DNA from: Escherichia coli
GTDB lineage: Bacteria > Pseudomonadota > Gammaproteobacteria > Enterobacterales > Enterobacteriaceae
DNA length: 64,000 nucleotides
NCBI RefSeq assembly: GCF_003334305.1
Contig: NZ_QOWS01000005.1
Reading direction: 5' to 3' (one strand)
Shown here: in pieces, positions 22,294 through 55,884 of the stretch
How the letters are laid out: each line of letters starts with the position of its first letter
How positions within the stretch are numbered: the first letter of the stretch is position 1
Notes under the pieces: generated by a model
What the model saw: only the letters and a program-made list of their open reading frames with translations
Database searches by the model: none
What the model was told of the DNA's origin: nothing
Position numbers and translations under genes: made by a program

Positions 22294-22845
22294 ATGCAAG
22301 ATTCCATTCTGACGACCGTAGTGAAAGATATCGACGGTGAAGTGACCACGCTGGAGAAGTACGCCGGTAATGTGCTGTTGATTGTCAATGTCGCCTCAAA
22401 GTGTGGCTTAACGCCGCAATATGAGCAGTTGGAGAATATTCAGAAAGCCTGGGCCGATCGAGGTTTTGTGGTGCTGGGATTCCCGTGCAACCAGTTTCTG
22501 GAACAAGAACCGGGCAGCGATGAAGAGATTAAAACTTACTGTACCACCACATGGGGGGTGACGTTCCCGATGTTCAGTAAGATTGAAGTTAATGGCGAAG
22601 GACGCCATCCGCTGTATCAAAAATTGATTGCCGCAGCGCCGACCGCAGTCGCGCCGGAAGAGAGCGGATTCTATGCCCGTATGGTCAGCAAAGGTCGTGC
22701 ACCGCTGTACCCTGATGATATTTTATGGAATTTTGAGAAATTTTTAGTTGGCAGGGACGGATTGGTCATCCAGCGTTTTTCCCCGGATATGACGCCGGAA
22801 GACCCCATTGTGATGGAAAGCATTAAACTGGCGTTGGCAAAATAA
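22294..22845 (+). CDS. btuE: Glutathione peroxidase-family protein BtuE
   Basis: 183-aa ORF with GPx motifs ([22 protein letters not shown]). Confidence 0.95.
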
Positions 22846-23594
22846 TGTCTATTGTGATGCAGTTACAGGATGTTGCGGAATCTACCCGCCTGGGGCCACT
22901 TTCTGGCGAGGTTCGGGCTGGGGAGATCCTGCACCTGGTGGGGCCGAATGGCGCGGGTAAGAGTACCTTGCTTGCACGAATGGCCGGAATGACCAGCGGT
23001 AAGGGAAGCATTCAGTTCGCGGGGCAACCCCTGGAAGCATGGTCCGCAACAAAACTCGCGCTGCATCGCGCCTATCTTTCACAACAGCAGACGCCGCCGT
23101 TTGCAATGCCGGTCTGGCACTACCTGACACTGCATCAGCACGATAAAACGCGTACCGAACTACTGAATGATGTCGCAGGGGCGCTGGCTCTTGATGACAA
23201 ACTCGGACGTAGCACCAATCAACTTTCCGGCGGTGAATGGCAACGCGTACGTCTTGCTGCGGTGGTGCTGCAAATCACACCACAAGCCAATCCCGCAGGT
23301 CAATTGCTGCTTCTTGATGAGCCGATGAACAGTCTTGATGTTGCGCAACAAAGTGCGTTAGACAAAATTCTGAGCGCTCTGTGTCAGCAAGGACTGGCGA
23401 TTGTGATGAGCAGTCACGATCTCAACCACACATTGCGTCATGCGCATCGGGCGTGGTTGCTAAAAGGTGGAAAAATGCTGGCCAGTGGACGCAGAGAAGA
23501 GGTGCTCACGCCGCCAAATCTGGCGCAGGCCTATGGGATGAATTTTCGCCGTCTGGATATCGAAGGTCACAGAATGCTGATTTCGACCATCTGA
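22845..23594 (+). CDS. btuD: Vitamin B12 ABC transporter ATP-binding protein
   Basis: 249-aa ORF with Walker A (GPNGAGKST) and ABC signature (LSGGEWQR); start overlaps the btuE stop (TAATG). Confidence 0.95.
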
Positions 23595-23671
23595 TTTCAT
23601 TAGTATCTTGAAAATCGGGTAATTACGACGCTAAATTAATGCAAGAATAAAAAACAGAGGAACCGTACGGA

Positions 23672-24136
23672 ATGCGTTTCTGCCTTATTTTGATCACAGC
23701 ACTGTTTCTGGCCGGGTGTAGCCACCATAAAGCACCGCCGCCAAATGCCAGACTTTCTGATTCGATTACCGTTATTGCCGGTTTGAACGACCAGCTACAA
23801 AGCTGGCATGGCACGCCGTATCGTTATGGTGGCATGACGCGGCGCGGTGTGGACTGTTCGGGATTTGTGGTTGTAACGATGCGCGATCGTTTCGATTTGC
23901 AGCTGCCCCGAGAAACCAAAGAACAAGCCTCTATCGGCACGCAAATTGATAAAGACGAGTTGCTGCCTGGTGACCTGGTCTTTTTCAAAACGGGTTCCGG
24001 ACAAAATGGTTTGCATGTAGGTATTTACGATACCAACAACCAATTTATCCACGCCTCTACCAGCAAGGGAGTGATGCGTTCCTCACTTGATAATGTCTAT
24101 TGGCAGAAAAATTTCTGGCAGGCGAGACGAATTTAG
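23672..24136 (+). CDS. nlpC: NlpC/P60 family lipoprotein (peptidoglycan endopeptidase-like)
   Basis: 154-aa ORF with lipobox (LFLAGC) and NlpC/P60 Cys motif (DCSGFV). Confidence 0.9.
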   Translation: MRFCLILITALFLAGCSHHKAPPPNARLSDSITVIAGLNDQLQSWHGTPYRYGGMTRRGVDCSGFVVVTMRDRFDLQLPRETKEQASIGTQIDKDELLPGDLVFFKTGSGQNGLHVGIYDTNNQFIHASTSKGVMRSSLDNVYWQKNFWQARRI

Positions 24137-52394: not shown

Positions 52395-53882
52395 ATGTCT
52401 CGTAATACTGAAGCAACTGACGATGTCAAAACCTGGACCGGCGGCCCGCTGAATTATAAAGAAGGATTCTTCACCCAGTTAGCCACCGATGAGCTGGCAA
52501 AGGGGATAAACGAAGAGGTGGTGCGCGCAATTTCGGCGAAGCGTAATGAGCCGGAGTGGATGCTGAAGTTTCGTCTAAACGCCTATCGCGCATGGCTGGA
52601 GATGGAAGAACCGCACTGGTTGAAAGCGCACTACGACAAGCTGAATTATCAGGATTACAGCTACTACTCAGCACCATCGTGCGGTAATTGTGACGACACT
52701 TGCGCGTCTGAACCTGGCGCGGTGCAGCAAACTGGCGCGAACGCCTTTTTAAGTAAAGAGGTGGAGGCGGCGTTTGAGCAGTTGGGCGTTCCCGTGCGGG
52801 AAGGCAAAGAGGTGGCGGTGGATGCCATTTTCGACTCAGTTTCGGTTGCCACTACTTATCGCGAAAAACTGGCGGAGCAGGGAATTATTTTCTGTTCCTT
52901 TGGTGAGGCGATCCACGATCACCCGGAACTGGTGCGTAAATATCTCGGCACCGTGGTGCCGGGGAATGACAACTTCTTTGCCGCGCTTAATGCGGCGGTA
53001 GCCTCTGACGGTACGTTTATTTATGTGCCTAAAGGCGTGCGCTGCCCGATGGAACTTTCCACCTATTTTCGCATTAACGCGGAAAAAACCGGGCAGTTTG
53101 AGCGCACCATTCTGGTGGCCGACGAAGACAGCTACGTCAGCTACATTGAAGGCTGTTCCGCTCCGGTGCGTGACAGCTATCAGTTACACGCGGCAGTGGT
53201 GGAAGTCATCATCCATAAAAACGCCGAGGTGAAATATTCCACGGTACAAAACTGGTTCCCTGGCGATAACAACACCGGCGGTATTCTCAACTTCGTCACC
53301 AAGCGTGCTTTGTGCGAAGGCGAAAACAGCAAAATGTCATGGACGCAATCAGAAACCGGGTCCGCGATTACGTGGAAATATCCCAGCTGCATTTTGCGCG
53401 GCGATAACTCCATTGGTGAGTTTTACTCAGTGGCGCTGACCAGCGGTCATCAGCAAGCGGATACCGGCACCAAGATGATCCACATCGGTAAAAACACCAA
53501 ATCGACCATTATCTCGAAAGGGATCTCTGCCGGACATAGTCAGAACAGTTATCGCGGCTTAGTGAAAATCATGCCGACGGCAACCAATGCGCGCAATTTC
53601 ACTCAGTGCGACTCAATGCTGATTGGCGCTAATTGTGGGGCGCATACCTTCCCGTATGTCGAATGTCGCAATAACAGCGCACAACTGGAGCACGAGGCAA
53701 CGACATCACGTATTGGTGAAGATCAACTGTTTTACTGCCTGCAACGCGGGATCAGCGAAGAAGACGCCATCTCGATGATTGTTAACGGTTTCTGCAAAGA
53801 CGTGTTCTCAGAACTGCCGCTGGAATTTGCCGTTGAAGCACAAAAACTCCTCGCCATCAGTCTTGAACACAGCGTCGGATAA
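52395..53882 (+). CDS. sufB: Fe-S cluster assembly scaffold protein SufB
   Basis: 495-aa product from [26 protein letters not shown]...; track ORF starts 13 codons upstream. Confidence 0.95.
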
Positions 53883-53891
53883 GGAATAAAC

Positions 53892-54638
53892 ATGTTAAGT
53901 ATTAAAGATTTACACGTCAGCGTGGAAGATAAAGCTATCCTGCGTGGATTAAGCCTCGCCGTTCGTCCCGGCGAAGTTCACGCCATTATGGGGCCAAACG
54001 GTTCGGGCAAAAGTACCTTATCGGCAACGCTTGCCGGGCGCGAAGATTATGAAGTGACGGGCGGCACGGTTGAGTTCAAAGGCAAAGATTTGCTTGCACT
54101 GTCGCCGGAAGATCGTGCAGGCGAAGGCATCTTTATGGCCTTCCAGTATCCGGTGGAGATTCCAGGCGTCAGTAACCAGTTTTTCCTGCAAACGGCACTT
54201 AATGCGGTGCGCAGCTATCGCGGCCAGGAAACGCTCGACCGCTTTGATTTTCAGGATTTGATGGAAGAGAAAATCGCTCTCCTGAAGATGCCGGAAGATT
54301 TATTAACCCGTTCGGTAAACGTTGGTTTTTCCGGCGGCGAGAAAAAGCGCAACGATATTTTGCAAATGGCGGTGCTGGAACCGGAGTTATGCATTCTTGA
54401 TGAGTCGGACTCCGGGCTGGATATTGACGCATTAAAAGTGGTCGCCGATGGCGTGAACTCGCTGCGTGATGGCAAGCGCTCATTCATCATTGTTACGCAC
54501 TACCAACGCATTCTCGACTACATCAAGCCTGATTACGTTCATGTGCTATATCAGGGACGAATTGTGAAATCCGGCGATTTCACGTTGGTCAAACAACTGG
54601 AGGAGCAGGGTTATGGCTGGCTTACCGAACAGCAGTAA
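53892..54638 (+). CDS. sufC: Fe-S cluster assembly ATPase SufC
   Basis: 248-aa ABC-type ATPase (GPNGSGKST). Confidence 0.96.
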   Translation: MLSIKDLHVSVEDKAILRGLSLAVRPGEVHAIMGPNGSGKSTLSATLAGREDYEVTGGTVEFKGKDLLALSPEDRAGEGIFMAFQYPVEIPGVSNQFFLQTALNAVRSYRGQETLDRFDFQDLMEEKIALLKMPEDLLTRSVNVGFSGGEKKRNDILQMAVLEPELCILDESDSGLDIDALKVVADGVNSLRDGKRSFIIVTHYQRILDYIKPDYVHVLYQGRIVKSGDFTLVKQLEEQGYGWLTEQQ

Positions 54639-55884
54639 TGCGCTGCAACAGTGGCATCACTTGTTTGAAGCTGAAGGGACAAAACGCTCACCGCAAGCAC
54701 AGCAGCATTTACAACAATTGCTGCGTACCGGACTGCCGACACGTAAACATGAAAACTGGAAATATACGCCGCTGGAAGGGCTGACCAATAGCCAGTTTGT
54801 CAGCATTGCGGGGGAGATATCCCCACAGCAGCGTGATGCCTTAGCGTTAACGTTAGACGCTGTGCGGCTGGTATTTGTCGATGGACGTTACGTGTCAGCA
54901 CTGAGCGATGCGACTGAAGGCAGCGGGTATGAAGTGAGCATTAACGACGACCGTCAGGGGGTACCCGACGCTATTCAGGCGGAAGTGTTTCTGCATTTGA
55001 CGGAAAGCCTGGCACAAAGCGTGACGCATATCGCCGTGAAGCGCGGTCAACGGCCGGCAAAGCCATTGCTGTTAATGCATATTACCCAGGGCGTGGCAGG
55101 TGAAGAGGTCAACACTGCCCATTACCGACATCATCTGGATCTGGCGGAAGGTGCCGAAGCAACGGTGATCGAACATTTTGTCAGCCTTAATGATGCTCGT
55201 CACTTCACCGGCGCACGGTTCACTATCAATGTCGCAGCGAACGCCCACTTGCAGCATATCAAGCTGGCGTTTGAAAACCCGGTCAGTCACCACTTTGCCC
55301 ATAACGATTTGTTGCTGGCTGACGATGCCACCGCATTTAGCCATAGTTTCCTGCTGGGTGGCGCAGTGTTACGACACAACACCAGTACGCAACTCAATGG
55401 CGAAAACAGCACGCTGCGGATCAATAGCCTGGCGATGCCGGTGAAAAACGAGGTGTGTGATACCCGTACCTGGCTGGAACACAATAAAGGTTTTTGTAAC
55501 AGCCGACAGTTGCACAAAACTATCGTCAGCGACAAAGGCCGCGCGGTATTTAACGGTTTGATCAACGTCGCGCAGCACGCCATCAAAACGGATGGTCAGA
55601 TGACCAACAATAATCTGCTGATGGGCAAACTGGCGGAAGTGGATACAAAACCGCAGCTGGAAATCTATGCAGATGATGTGAAATGCAGCCACGGCGCGAC
55701 GGTGGGGCGTATTGATGATGAACAGATGTTCTATCTGCGCTCGCGCGGGATCAATCAGCAGGATGCCCAGCAGATGATCATTTACGCCTTTGCTGCCGAA
55801 CTGACGGAAGCACTGCGTGATGAGGGGCTTAAACAGCAGGTGCTGGCCCGAATCGGTCAACGGCTGCCAGGAGGTGCAAGATGA
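54613..55884 (+). CDS. sufD: Fe-S cluster assembly protein SufD
   Basis: 423-aa [25 protein letters not shown]...; overlaps the sufC 3' end by 26 nt. Confidence 0.93.

What the first reader, a model, noticed from the sequence alone, without database searches (positions are those of the whole stretch)
22843..55884. Multiple start/stop overlaps indicating translational coupling
btuE/btuD overlap as TAATG at 22843-22847; ydiT/ydiS, ydiJ/menI and sufD/sufS overlap as ATGA (33719-33722, 50772-50775, 55881-55884); and sufD begins 26 nt inside sufC (54613-54638). These are directly visible and imply stoichiometric co-translation within the btu, ydi and suf operons.
Basis: seen in the sequence. Interest (0 to 1): 0.2.

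Follow-up and report, generated by a model that had tools for sequence, protein, structure and literature searches.

The report
Ordinary start/stop overlaps in E. coli operons
Five neighbouring gene pairs in this E. coli region overlap by 1, 4 or 26 bases exactly as described, a textbook and conserved operon layout that can link their translation but does not by itself make the two proteins in equal amounts.

Summary
The window is E. coli, 98.8% identical to K-12 MG1655. All five junctions match the RefSeq annotation to the base: btuE/btuD -1 (TAATG), ydiS/ydiT -4, ydiJ/menI -4, sufD/sufS -4 (ATGA) and sufC/sufD -26. They are the only overlaps among 42 co-directional neighbour pairs.

The starts are real. 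Each is the first start codon of its ORF and is conserved in other species:
- sufC/sufD -26: 80/80 Enterobacteriaceae plus Proteus
- sufD/sufS -4: 77/79
- ydiJ/menI -4: 53/54 adjacent pairs
- btuE/btuD -1: 5/5 genera
- the FixC/FixX-type -4: across three phyla

None of these five pairs has been tested, and one native E. coli overlap (bioBF) is not coupled.

"Stoichiometric" is contradicted where data exist. Ribosome-profiling synthesis rates are btuE 998 versus btuD 92 per generation. SufC:SufD is about 2:1. BtuE/BtuD and YdiJ/MenI are not known complex partners (my own knowledge).

btuD has no Shine-Dalgarno sequence and is the best candidate for obligate coupling. sufD and sufS carry strong, conserved ones. 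A 26-nt overlap lies outside the range where reinitiation worked in synthetic tests.

Already known; low interest.

The parts
22843..22847 (+). TAATG: btuE stop (TAA 22843-45) sharing one base with the btuD start (ATG 22845-47); spacing -1
   Evidence: The -1 overlap is kept in Salmonella, Citrobacter, Leclercia, Kosakonia and one unnamed lineage. It is kept even where BtuD has lost two N-terminal codons (L089).
22825..22844 (+). 20 nt upstream of the btuD start, with no Shine-Dalgarno sequence (aaactggcgttggcaaaata)
   Evidence: Anti-SD duplex energy is -1.5 kcal/mol against a window median of -6.5. It is equally weak in all five other genera, -1.5 to -4.8.
33719..33722 (-). ATGA on the minus strand: ydiS stop (TGA) overlapping the ydiT start (ATG); spacing -4
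   Evidence: The same -4 overlap occurs in Salmonella, Shewanella, Desulfobaculum and Desulfitobacterium (GTGA there), and in the K-12 paralogue pair fixC/fixX. ygcN/ygcO overlap by 10 nt. In Brenneria the ATGA motif is present but the upstream gene was not called; the frame is open for only 170 codons.
33733..33739 (-). Shine-Dalgarno sequence AAGGGAG for ydiT, embedded in the last codons of ydiS
   Evidence: Energy is -7.6 kcal/mol. An AAAGGRG motif at the same distance is conserved across phyla.
50772..50775 (+). ATGA: ydiJ stop (TGA) overlapping the menI start (ATG); spacing -4
   Evidence: Spacing is -4 in 53 of 54 Enterobacteriaceae species where the two genes are adjacent, and -1 in one.
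50760..50763 (+). GGAG Shine-Dalgarno core for menI inside ydiJ
   Evidence: Energy is -6.4 kcal/mol. CTGGAGAT is kept in essentially all junction variants, and third-position entropy is low at those codons.
54613..54638 (+). 26-nt dual-coding overlap: the first 8 codons and 2 nt of sufD lie over the last 7 sense codons and the stop of sufC, plus 2 nt of the preceding codon
   Evidence: Spacing is -26 in 80/80 Enterobacteriaceae species and in Proteus mirabilis. The sequence ATGGCTGGCTTACCGAACAGCAGTAA is nearly invariant. Third-position entropy in the last 10 sufC codons is 0.34 against 1.10 in the gene body.
54599..54605 (+). GGAGGAG Shine-Dalgarno sequence for sufD, 7 nt upstream of its ATG, inside sufC
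   Evidence: Energy is -9.3 kcal/mol. The motif is unchanged in all but one of the junction variants listed from the 80 species (one reads cttGAGGAG), despite lying on synonymous sites of Leu-Glu-Glu-Gln.
55881..55884 (+). ATGA: sufD stop (TGA) overlapping the sufS start (ATG); spacing -4
   Evidence: Spacing is -4 in 77 of 79 species. This count includes L010, which the script mis-scored and one search corrected. The exceptions are +2 in Salmonella enterica arizonae and +1 in Kosakonia sacchari.
55869..55874 (+). AGGAGG Shine-Dalgarno sequence for sufS inside sufD
   Evidence: Energy is -11.6 kcal/mol, the strongest in the window. GGAGG or GGGGG is kept across species.

Best explanation
These are five real, evolutionarily stable start/stop overlaps of the ordinary operon kind.

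The four short ones (-1 and -4) place the downstream start codon within reach of a ribosome that has just terminated the upstream gene. Part or all of downstream translation therefore most likely arises by termination-reinitiation. This links downstream to upstream translation, but the reinitiation efficiency is pair-specific and below 1, so the protein ratio is set rather than equalised.

btuD has no Shine-Dalgarno sequence. It is probably translated almost only by the roughly one-in-ten ribosomes that reinitiate after btuE.

ydiT, menI and sufS have their own Shine-Dalgarno sequences embedded in the upstream gene. These assist reinitiation and may also allow some independent initiation.

sufD starts 26 nt before sufC ends. 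It most likely initiates mainly de novo on its strong, invariant GGAGGAG, just behind or between the ribosomes finishing sufC. Any coupling there is indirect.

Shown here: the anatomy, the correctness of the starts, their conservation, the presence or absence of Shine-Dalgarno sequences, and the unequal outputs. Inferred: that reinitiation actually occurs at these junctions.
For: Anatomy and annotation.

The starts are genuine. Each is the first start codon of its ORF. The aligned ATG and the N-terminal peptides are conserved. Alternative in-frame starts lack a Shine-Dalgarno sequence or are not conserved.

Overlaps are stable while neighbouring non-overlapping spacers drift. sufB/sufC varies over 9, 16, 17, 18, 20, 31, 37 and 159 nt, and sufS/sufE over 8-15 nt, in the same 80 genomes. 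The two sufD/sufS exceptions stay at +1 and +2, within the reported reinitiation range.

The FixC/FixX-type -4 overlap is kept across Pseudomonadota, Desulfobacterota and Bacillota, and in the K-12 paralogue pair.

btuD lacks a Shine-Dalgarno sequence in six genera. Its synthesis rate is 92 against 998 for btuE, which fits inefficient reinitiation.

Synonymous sites are suppressed over the sufD Shine-Dalgarno sequence and the overlap.

Literature: 4 of 5 native E. coli -4/-1 pairs are coupled by termination-reinitiation, and removing the Shine-Dalgarno sequence lowered reinitiation in 4 of 5 (PMC6728339). Coupling is efficient from -4 to +3 and was absent at -25 in synthetic constructs (PMC12548453). 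Pairs spaced -8..+10 are 4.5-fold enriched for complex subunits (PMC10666635). SufBC2D is a 1:2:1 complex obtained only by expression from the intact operon (PMC6006206), and the measured SufC:SufD ratio is 848:417.
Against: No experiment on any of these five junctions was found.

bioBF shows that an overlap can exist without coupling.

Four of the five downstream genes have adequate Shine-Dalgarno sequences and could initiate independently.

Neither the sufD nor the btuD junction folds better than shuffled sequence (z -0.7 and -0.6). Ribosome-binding-site accessibility is unremarkable, at the 16th to 86th percentile.

Overlap conservation can be partly passive, because an indel inside an overlap would frameshift a gene.

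Outside Enterobacterales the sufC/sufD junction takes many forms: -4, -1, +12, +15, +22 and +115. No single geometry is required for Suf function.

The protein numbers are steady-state, label-free values taken under non-inducing conditions. MenI differs between data sets of different kind (103 copies per cell versus 755 molecules synthesised per generation).
Confidence: 0.75

Rival explanations
1. The overlaps are structurally real but functionally neutral. They arose by drift of stop and start codons under pressure for compact operons. The downstream genes are initiated independently on their own ribosome-binding sites, and the overlaps persist only because they are hard to undo without damaging a protein.
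For: ATGA and TRATG motifs at stop codons are frequent by chance, at 10 of 58 stops. ydiT, menI, sufD and sufS all have Shine-Dalgarno sequences at or above the window median. bioBF is overlapped yet uncoupled. The sufC/sufD and sufD/sufS geometry differs freely between phyla. BtuE/BtuD and YdiJ/MenI have no known need for coordinated dosage (my own knowledge).
Against: btuD has no Shine-Dalgarno sequence in any of six genera, yet it is translated. Spacing peaks at exactly -4 and -1, in this window (P about 0.002) and genome-wide. 4 of 5 tested native E. coli overlaps are coupled. When the sufD/sufS overlap was lost, the spacing stayed at +1 or +2.
Confidence: 0.17
2. Coupling occurs, but by RNA unfolding rather than reinitiation. 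The downstream ribosome-binding site is sequestered in secondary structure, which ribosomes translating the end of the upstream gene melt, so that new 30S subunits can bind.
For: This mechanism is established for other pairs, and the review prefers it for long overlaps such as MS2 coat/lysis at -50 (PMC12548453). The sufD and btuD start regions are somewhat less accessible than the window median, at the 16th and 24th percentile.
Against: Neither junction folds better than shuffled controls (z -0.71 and -0.59; 42 and 49 of 200 shuffles fold as well). The MFE structures are low-frequency in the ensemble. No conserved hairpin was sought or found.
Confidence: 0.06
3. One or more overlaps are annotation artefacts. 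The true start lies further downstream, so there is no overlap.
For: btuD has a second in-frame ATG at codon 5, and sufS a GTG at codon 8. A neighbouring gene, fadK, is annotated with two different starts in different records.
Against: The overlapped ATG is conserved in every species examined. The btuD codon-5 Met is not conserved (L088, L089). The alternatives have no Shine-Dalgarno sequence (+0.9 and +0.4 kcal/mol). Strong, conserved Shine-Dalgarno sequences sit at 6-8 nt before the annotated sufD, sufS and menI starts and about 10 nt before the ydiT start. N-terminal residues are conserved as protein.
Confidence: 0.02

Closest known systems
Native E. coli overlapping pairs shown to be coupled by termination-reinitiation: hyfH/hyfI, astD/astB, ydbH/ynbE, menD/menH (Huber et al. 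2019, PMC6728339)
   Same: They are co-directional with -4 or -1 start/stop overlaps and carry a Shine-Dalgarno sequence inside the upstream ORF. They follow the same ATGA or TRATG pattern as btuE/btuD, ydiS/ydiT, ydiJ/menI and sufD/sufS.
   Different: Those pairs were tested with premature-stop and Shine-Dalgarno mutants; the five pairs here were not. btuD differs in having no Shine-Dalgarno sequence at all.
trpB/trpA and trpE/trpD of the E. coli trp operon (classical translational coupling; cited in PMC12548453 and PMC10666635)
   Same: The stop/start overlap is of the -1 type (from my own knowledge; the papers read say only 'stop-start overlap'), as at btuE/btuD. The products are subunits of one enzyme, as for SufC/SufD and probably YdiS/YdiT.
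   Different: The Trp subunits are needed 1:1. BtuE is not a partner of BtuD, and the measured synthesis ratio is about 11:1.
bioB/bioF of E. coli (overlapping but not coupled; PMC6728339)
   Same: It is a short start/stop overlap inside a biosynthetic operon between enzymes that do not form a complex, like ydiJ/menI.
   Different: bioF was shown to initiate de novo despite a weak Shine-Dalgarno sequence. Nothing is known for ydiJ/menI.
Long-overlap coupling such as MS2 coat/lysis (-50 nt) and the synthetic -25 nt constructs of Tian and Salis (as reviewed in PMC12548453)
   Same: As at sufC/sufD (-26), the downstream start lies tens of nucleotides upstream of the upstream stop. A terminating ribosome would have to move backwards, or act by unfolding RNA.
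   Different: MS2 relies on a defined hairpin, and no significant structure is predicted at sufC/sufD. The synthetic -25 constructs showed no coupling, whereas sufD has a strong conserved Shine-Dalgarno sequence of its own.
fixC/fixX and ygcN/ygcO of E. coli K-12 (paralogues of ydiS/ydiT)
   Same: The protein families are the same (ETF-quinone oxidoreductase-like plus ferredoxin-like). fixC/fixX has the identical -4 ATGA with an AAAGGAG Shine-Dalgarno sequence at the same distance.
   Different: ygcN/ygcO overlap by 10 nt rather than 4.

Membership tests
Short start/stop overlapping co-directional gene pairs (-4 NTGA, -1 TRATG) | [quoted passage not shown] | tested here: met
   Met for four of the five pairs: btuE/btuD, ydiS/ydiT, ydiJ/menI and sufD/sufS. 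sufC/sufD is a 26-nt overlap and belongs to the 'longer overlap' class instead.
Short start/stop overlapping co-directional gene pairs (-4 NTGA, -1 TRATG) | Both reading frames are genuine protein-coding genes with correctly placed start codons | tested here: met
   The genes are 97.6-100% identical to curated K-12 genes. The start codons and N-termini are conserved in 5 to 80 other species.
Translationally coupled pairs (termination-reinitiation) | Downstream translation depends on ribosomes reaching the upstream stop codon (premature-stop test at equal mRNA level) | not testable with these tools
   This needs reporter constructs. No published test for these five pairs was found.
Translationally coupled pairs (termination-reinitiation) | Spacing within the range where reinitiation is efficient: -4 to +3 in the review of reporter studies (PMC12548453); -8 to +10 taken as predictive in PMC10666635 | tested here: met
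   Met for the four -4/-1 pairs. Not met for sufC/sufD at -26, because no coupling was seen at -25 in synthetic constructs.
Translationally coupled pairs (termination-reinitiation) | Weak or absent independent initiation signal at the downstream gene, so that expression must come from upstream ribosomes | tested here: inconclusive
   btuD has no Shine-Dalgarno sequence (-1.5 kcal/mol, conserved absence). ydiT (-7.6), menI (-6.4), sufD (-9.3) and sufS (-11.6) have good ones. A Shine-Dalgarno sequence helps both reinitiation and de novo initiation, so it does not discriminate.
Stoichiometric (equimolar or proportional) synthesis of complex subunits | The two products are subunits of one complex | tested here: inconclusive
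   SufC and SufD are subunits of SufBC2D (PMC6006206). FixC/FixX homologues of YdiS/YdiT form the FixABCX complex (PMC6041385). SufD/SufS interact only as SufBC2D with SufSE. For BtuE/BtuD and YdiJ/MenI no complex is known; this rests on my own knowledge and was not tested here.
Stoichiometric (equimolar or proportional) synthesis of complex subunits | Measured synthesis or abundance ratio equals the ratio in the complex | tested here: not met
   Not met for the pairs taken as a set. The btuE:btuD synthesis ratio is 998:92. YdiJ:MenI is 1371:103 copies per cell, though MenI is uncertain. Consistent cases are SufC:SufD at 848:417, about 2:1, which matches SufBC2D, and SufD:SufS at 417:339. No data were found for YdiS/YdiT.

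The most novel reading that the evidence does not exclude
The invariant 26-nt sufC/sufD overlap with its invariant GGAGGAG may be a ratio-setting device rather than a coupling device. Because the sufD initiation site lies under the ribosomes that are finishing sufC, sufD could be initiated only in the gaps between them, or by occasional backward movement from the sufC stop. This would hold SufD at about half of SufC, as SufBC2D needs. The geometry has been frozen across Enterobacterales for that reason.
Probability: 0.12. Interest if true: 0.35.

Novelty: already known. Interest (0 to 1): 0.08.

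Why it matters
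It matters little beyond housekeeping. The overlaps are already in the curated K-12 annotation, and the -4/-1 pattern is the best-known spacing rule of prokaryotic operons.

The useful points are corrective:
- A start/stop overlap is a hint of coupling, not proof.
- Coupling does not mean equal amounts (btuE:btuD is about 11:1).
- Longer overlaps such as sufC/sufD probably work differently from -4/-1 overlaps.

btuE/btuD has no Shine-Dalgarno sequence, a conserved TAATG and known synthesis rates. It would make a clean native test case for measuring reinitiation efficiency.

Tried and rejected
1. Li et al. 2014 (Cell) and two other quantitative papers could not be read by id. Li's values were recovered only for btuC, btuE, btuD and menI, through Mori 2021 Dataset EV6. 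The suf and ydi rows are cut from the stored file.

2. Supplements of Burkhardt 2017 (eLife) and of PMC9624429 held none of the genes.

3. Literature searches for btuCED and for ydiJ/menI found nothing on translation of these junctions.

4. RNA folding of the sufC/sufD and btuE/btuD junctions gave no structure better than shuffles. A conserved-structure analysis was therefore not pursued.

5. The accessibility of the ribosome-binding sites did not separate overlapping from other genes.

6. A simple promoter scan found no candidate internal promoter between btuC and btuE that would explain btuE being made 34-fold more than btuC.

7. My start-picking script mis-scored L010 as +114 because the tblastn hit was split. 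Inspection showed a normal ATGA.

8. Rejected: a TAATG at the sufC stop (54636-40) as an alternative sufD start. Its ATG is out of frame with sufD.

9. Not done, to save shared resources: a metagenome scan and a third protein-database search for deeper sufD sampling. Plasmid and chromid records served instead.

Full report
**What the window is.** The window aligns over 45 kb to E. coli K-12 MG1655 (NC_000913.3, 1755000-1800000) in reverse orientation at 98.8% identity. It covers katE to ydhV. I mapped 58 complete K-12 CDSs onto it using the RefSeq annotation. All keep their annotated start and stop codons. The one exception is ydjO, which carries an internal stop in this strain.

| Pair | Upstream gene | Downstream gene | Junction | Spacing |
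|---|---|---|---|---|
| btuE/btuD | 22294-22845 | 22845-23594 | TAATG at 22843-47 | -1 |
| ydiS/ydiT (minus strand) | 33719-35008 | 33429-33722 | plus-strand TCAT at 33719-22 = ATGA | -4 |
| ydiJ/menI | 47719-50775 | 50772-51182 | ATGA | -4 |
| sufC/sufD | 53892-54638 | 54613-55884 | different frames | -26 |
| sufD/sufS | 54613-55884 | 55881-57101 | ATGA | -4 |

An independent PGAP annotation of another strain gives the same btuE/btuD and ydiS/ydiT junctions. These five are the only overlaps among the 42 co-directional adjacent pairs of the window.

- thrS>infC +3
- pheT>ihfA +4
- ydiT>fadK +2
- ynhH>pykF +7
- sufA>sufB +8
- sufB>sufC +9
- sufS>sufE +12

**Is it more than chance?** The bare motif is not. 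Ten of the 58 stop codons in the window lie in an ATGA or a TAATG/TGATG, and only four of those ATGs open a gene. One chance case is at the sufC stop itself (54636-40), where the ATG is out of frame with sufD. What is not chance is that the ATG opens a conserved gene, and that spacing piles up at two exact values. Of the 17 pairs spaced within -30..+30, three are at -4 and one at -1. Under uniform spacing, P is about 0.0025 for three or more pairs at one position and about 0.002 for four or more at two positions. This mirrors the known genome-wide peaks at -4 and -1 (PMC10666635, PMC12548453).

- All five downstream starts are the first start codon of their ORF.
- In 80 Enterobacteriaceae species retrieved with SufD (74-98% identity), the aligned ATG is present at sufD in 80/80, at sufS in 79/79 and at menI in 54/54 adjacent pairs, one of them TTG.
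- The N-terminal peptides are conserved as protein: MAGLPNSS..., M[TS]F..VRADFP..., MIWKR....
- Alternative in-frame starts are poor candidates. The btuD codon-5 ATG has no Shine-Dalgarno (SD) sequence (+0.9 kcal/mol) and is lost in two genera. The sufS codon-8 GTG is at +0.4, and the sufD codon-17 TTG at -1.5.
- In one lineage BtuD is two codons shorter, yet its ATG still overlaps the btuE stop (L089).

**Conservation of the junctions.**
- *sufC/sufD.* Spacing is -26 in 80/80 species. The overlap sequence is almost invariant, and the GGAGGAG lies 7 nt before the ATG in all but one of the junction variants listed. Third-position entropy falls from 1.10 bits in the sufC body to 0.59 in codons -20..-11 and 0.34 in the last ten codons. 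This is the signature of extra constraint from a second frame plus an SD sequence. Proteus mirabilis (Morganellaceae) also has -26.
- *sufD/sufS.* Spacing is -4 in 77 of 79. The two exceptions are +2 (Salmonella enterica arizonae) and +1 (Kosakonia sacchari).
- *ydiJ/menI.* Spacing is -4 in 53 of 54 and -1 in one.
- *Non-overlapping spacers in the same genomes drift.* sufB/sufC takes 9, 16, 17, 18, 20, 31, 37 and 159 nt. sufS/sufE takes 8-15 nt.
- *btuE/btuD.* Spacing is -1 in Salmonella, Citrobacter, Leclercia, Kosakonia and one unnamed lineage (BtuD 67-80% identical). In the same loci btuC-btuE spacing varies from 33 to 91 nt.
- *ydiS/ydiT.* The -4 overlap recurs in Salmonella, Shewanella algae, Desulfobaculum bizertense and Desulfitobacterium (GTGA there), and in the K-12 paralogues fixC/fixX (-4). 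ygcN/ygcO overlap by 10 nt. Brenneria also has the ATGA motif, but the upstream gene was not called there and its frame is open for only 170 codons.
- *Outside Enterobacterales the suf junctions are not fixed.* sufC/sufD is -1 in Azospirillum, +22 in Sinorhizobium, -4 in Polaromonas, +115 in Riemerella, +12 in Ligilactobacillus and +15 in Bacillus thuringiensis. sufD/sufS ranges from -14 to +12. Tsukamurella has a different gene order.

Tight spacing therefore recurs, but no particular geometry is required for Suf function. Part of the stability of an overlap is passive, since an indel inside it would frameshift a gene.

**Ribosome-binding signals.** The anti-SD duplex energy over -20..-1 has a window median of -6.5 kcal/mol.

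| Downstream gene | Energy (kcal/mol) | Note |
|---|---|---|
| btuD | -1.5 | no SD; -1.5 to -4.8 in five other genera |
| ydiT | -7.6 | AAGGGAG; an AAAGGRG motif is conserved across phyla |
| menI | -6.4 | GGAG |
| sufD | -9.3 | GGAGGAG |
| sufS | -11.6 | AGGAGG; the strongest in the window |

Predicted accessibility of the start regions is unremarkable, between the 16th and 86th percentile. The sufD and btuD junctions do not fold better than shuffled sequence (z -0.71 and -0.59).

**What is known about such junctions.**
- Huber et al. [quoted passage not shown] Removing the internal SD sequence lowered reinitiation in four of five (PMC6728339). None of the present pairs was included.
- The 2025 review states that coupling is most efficient from -4 to +3. 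It declines faster with longer overlap than with longer spacing, and was absent at -25 nt in synthetic constructs (PMC12548453).
- Pairs spaced -8..+10 encode complex subunits in 30.4% of cases, against 6.8% for pairs spaced more than 20 nt apart (PMC10666635). Most overlapping pairs are therefore not complex partners.

**Do the outputs look stoichiometric?**
- *Synthesis rates.* Mori et al. 2021 Dataset EV6 tabulates the Li et al. 2014 ribosome-profiling synthesis values as copies times molecular weight. Dividing by the listed weights gives whole numbers: btuC 29, btuE 998, btuD 92 and menI 755 molecules per generation. BtuE is thus made about 11 times more than BtuD despite the TAATG. This fits inefficient reinitiation at a start without an SD sequence, not equimolar synthesis.
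- *Protein copies.* Label-free proteomics of BW25113 (Zhao et al. 2019, Table S3) gives, in copies per cell: SufA 86, SufC 848, SufD 417, SufS 339, SufE 267, YdiJ 1371, MenI 103 and BtuE 246.
- *Ratios.* SufC:SufD is about 2:1, which matches the SufBC2D complex. That complex is obtained only by expression from the intact operon (PMC6006206). SufD:SufS is about 1.2:1. YdiJ:MenI looks far from 1:1, but MenI is uncertain: it rests on two peptides, and the other data set, of a different kind, gives 755 molecules synthesised per generation.
- *Gaps and partners.* No data were found for YdiS/YdiT. Homologous FixC/FixX proteins belong to one FixABCX complex (PMC6041385). That BtuE is dispensable for B12 transport, and that YdiJ and MenI are unrelated enzymes, rests on my own knowledge, not on a tool result.

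**Most likely mechanism.** For the four short overlaps, a ribosome that terminates the upstream gene is positioned on the downstream start and reinitiates with pair-specific efficiency.
- btuD probably depends on this almost entirely.
- ydiT, menI and sufS have SD sequences that help reinitiation and may add independent initiation.
- For sufC/sufD the start lies 26 nt behind the stop. The strong, invariant SD sequence points to mainly de novo initiation close behind ribosomes that are finishing sufC.

The anatomy, conservation, signals and unequal outputs are shown here. The act of reinitiation is inferred. Rivals are neutral overlap with independent initiation (about 0.17), coupling by RNA unfolding (about 0.06) and mis-annotated starts (about 0.02).

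**Verdict.** The overlaps are already in the curated annotation and belong to the best-known spacing class of prokaryotic operons, so the finding is already known and of low interest. The only mildly open idea is that the frozen -26 sufC/sufD overlap helps set the 2:1 SufC:SufD ratio. I rate that at about 0.12.

Noticed in passing
window 59294-60908 (minus strand): pykF has essentially no Shine-Dalgarno sequence (-1.3 kcal/mol). It starts 7 nt after the stop of ynhH, a 64-aa ORF that begins with TTG. This arrangement could deliver ribosomes to pykF by uORF-type coupling.
   Followed up: no
window 33372-33428 (minus strand): The fadK start is annotated differently in different records. K-12 RefSeq gives 566 aa, starting 2 nt after the ydiT stop with no Shine-Dalgarno sequence (-1.7). 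PGAP in strain 13KWH46 gives 548 aa, starting 54 nt further on (-3.0). In Salmonella fadK starts 237 nt after ydiT.
   Followed up: partly
window 3268-4071 (plus strand): ydjO carries an in-frame stop at codon 119 and several indels relative to K-12 (95% identity). It splits into ORFs of 122 and 145 aa and is probably a pseudogene in this strain.
   Followed up: partly
window 21092-21250, 45925-46032, 51636-51696, 17127-17251: Rfam matches above gathering score: STnc540 in the ihfA-btuC spacer, RprA (minus strand), rydB, and the Phe leader upstream of pheS.
   Followed up: no
window 21251-23594: Published synthesis rates within the btuCED operon are very uneven: btuC 29, btuE 998, btuD 92 per generation. 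btuC and btuD encode the 1:1 partners of the transporter. A simple consensus scan found no promoter-like site between btuC and btuE.
   Followed up: partly
window 15765-15767 and 20847-20853: infC starts with ATT, 3 nt after the thrS stop. ihfA starts 4 nt after the pheT stop, and that +4 spacing is identical in five other genera.
   Followed up: no
protein P0004 (one 1985-nt ENA contig): A 348-aa protein carries both the glutathione-peroxidase and the ABC-ATPase domains. It is a BtuE-BtuD fusion, as expected from a 1-nt change at the TAATG junction or from a sequencing error.
   Followed up: no
L001 1-19043 (E. coli 13KWH46): In this strain a P2-like prophage (integrase, capsid, terminase and tail genes) lies immediately upstream of btuC. 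The window has ihfA there instead.
   Followed up: no
PLSDB records NZ_OL790696.1 and NZ_OL790812.1: Two records labelled as plasmids are 4.8 Mb (E. coli) and 4.1 Mb (Proteus mirabilis). They are evidently chromosomes and are almost unannotated.
   Followed up: no
L100 (Polaromonas pE3SP1) and L104 (Tsukamurella): Some distant suf operons are chained by overlaps throughout. In Polaromonas, sufB/C, sufC/D and sufD/S are all -4. In Tsukamurella the order is sufB-D-C-S-U with spacings -1, +18, -4, -1 and -4 (the last to the next gene).
   Followed up: no
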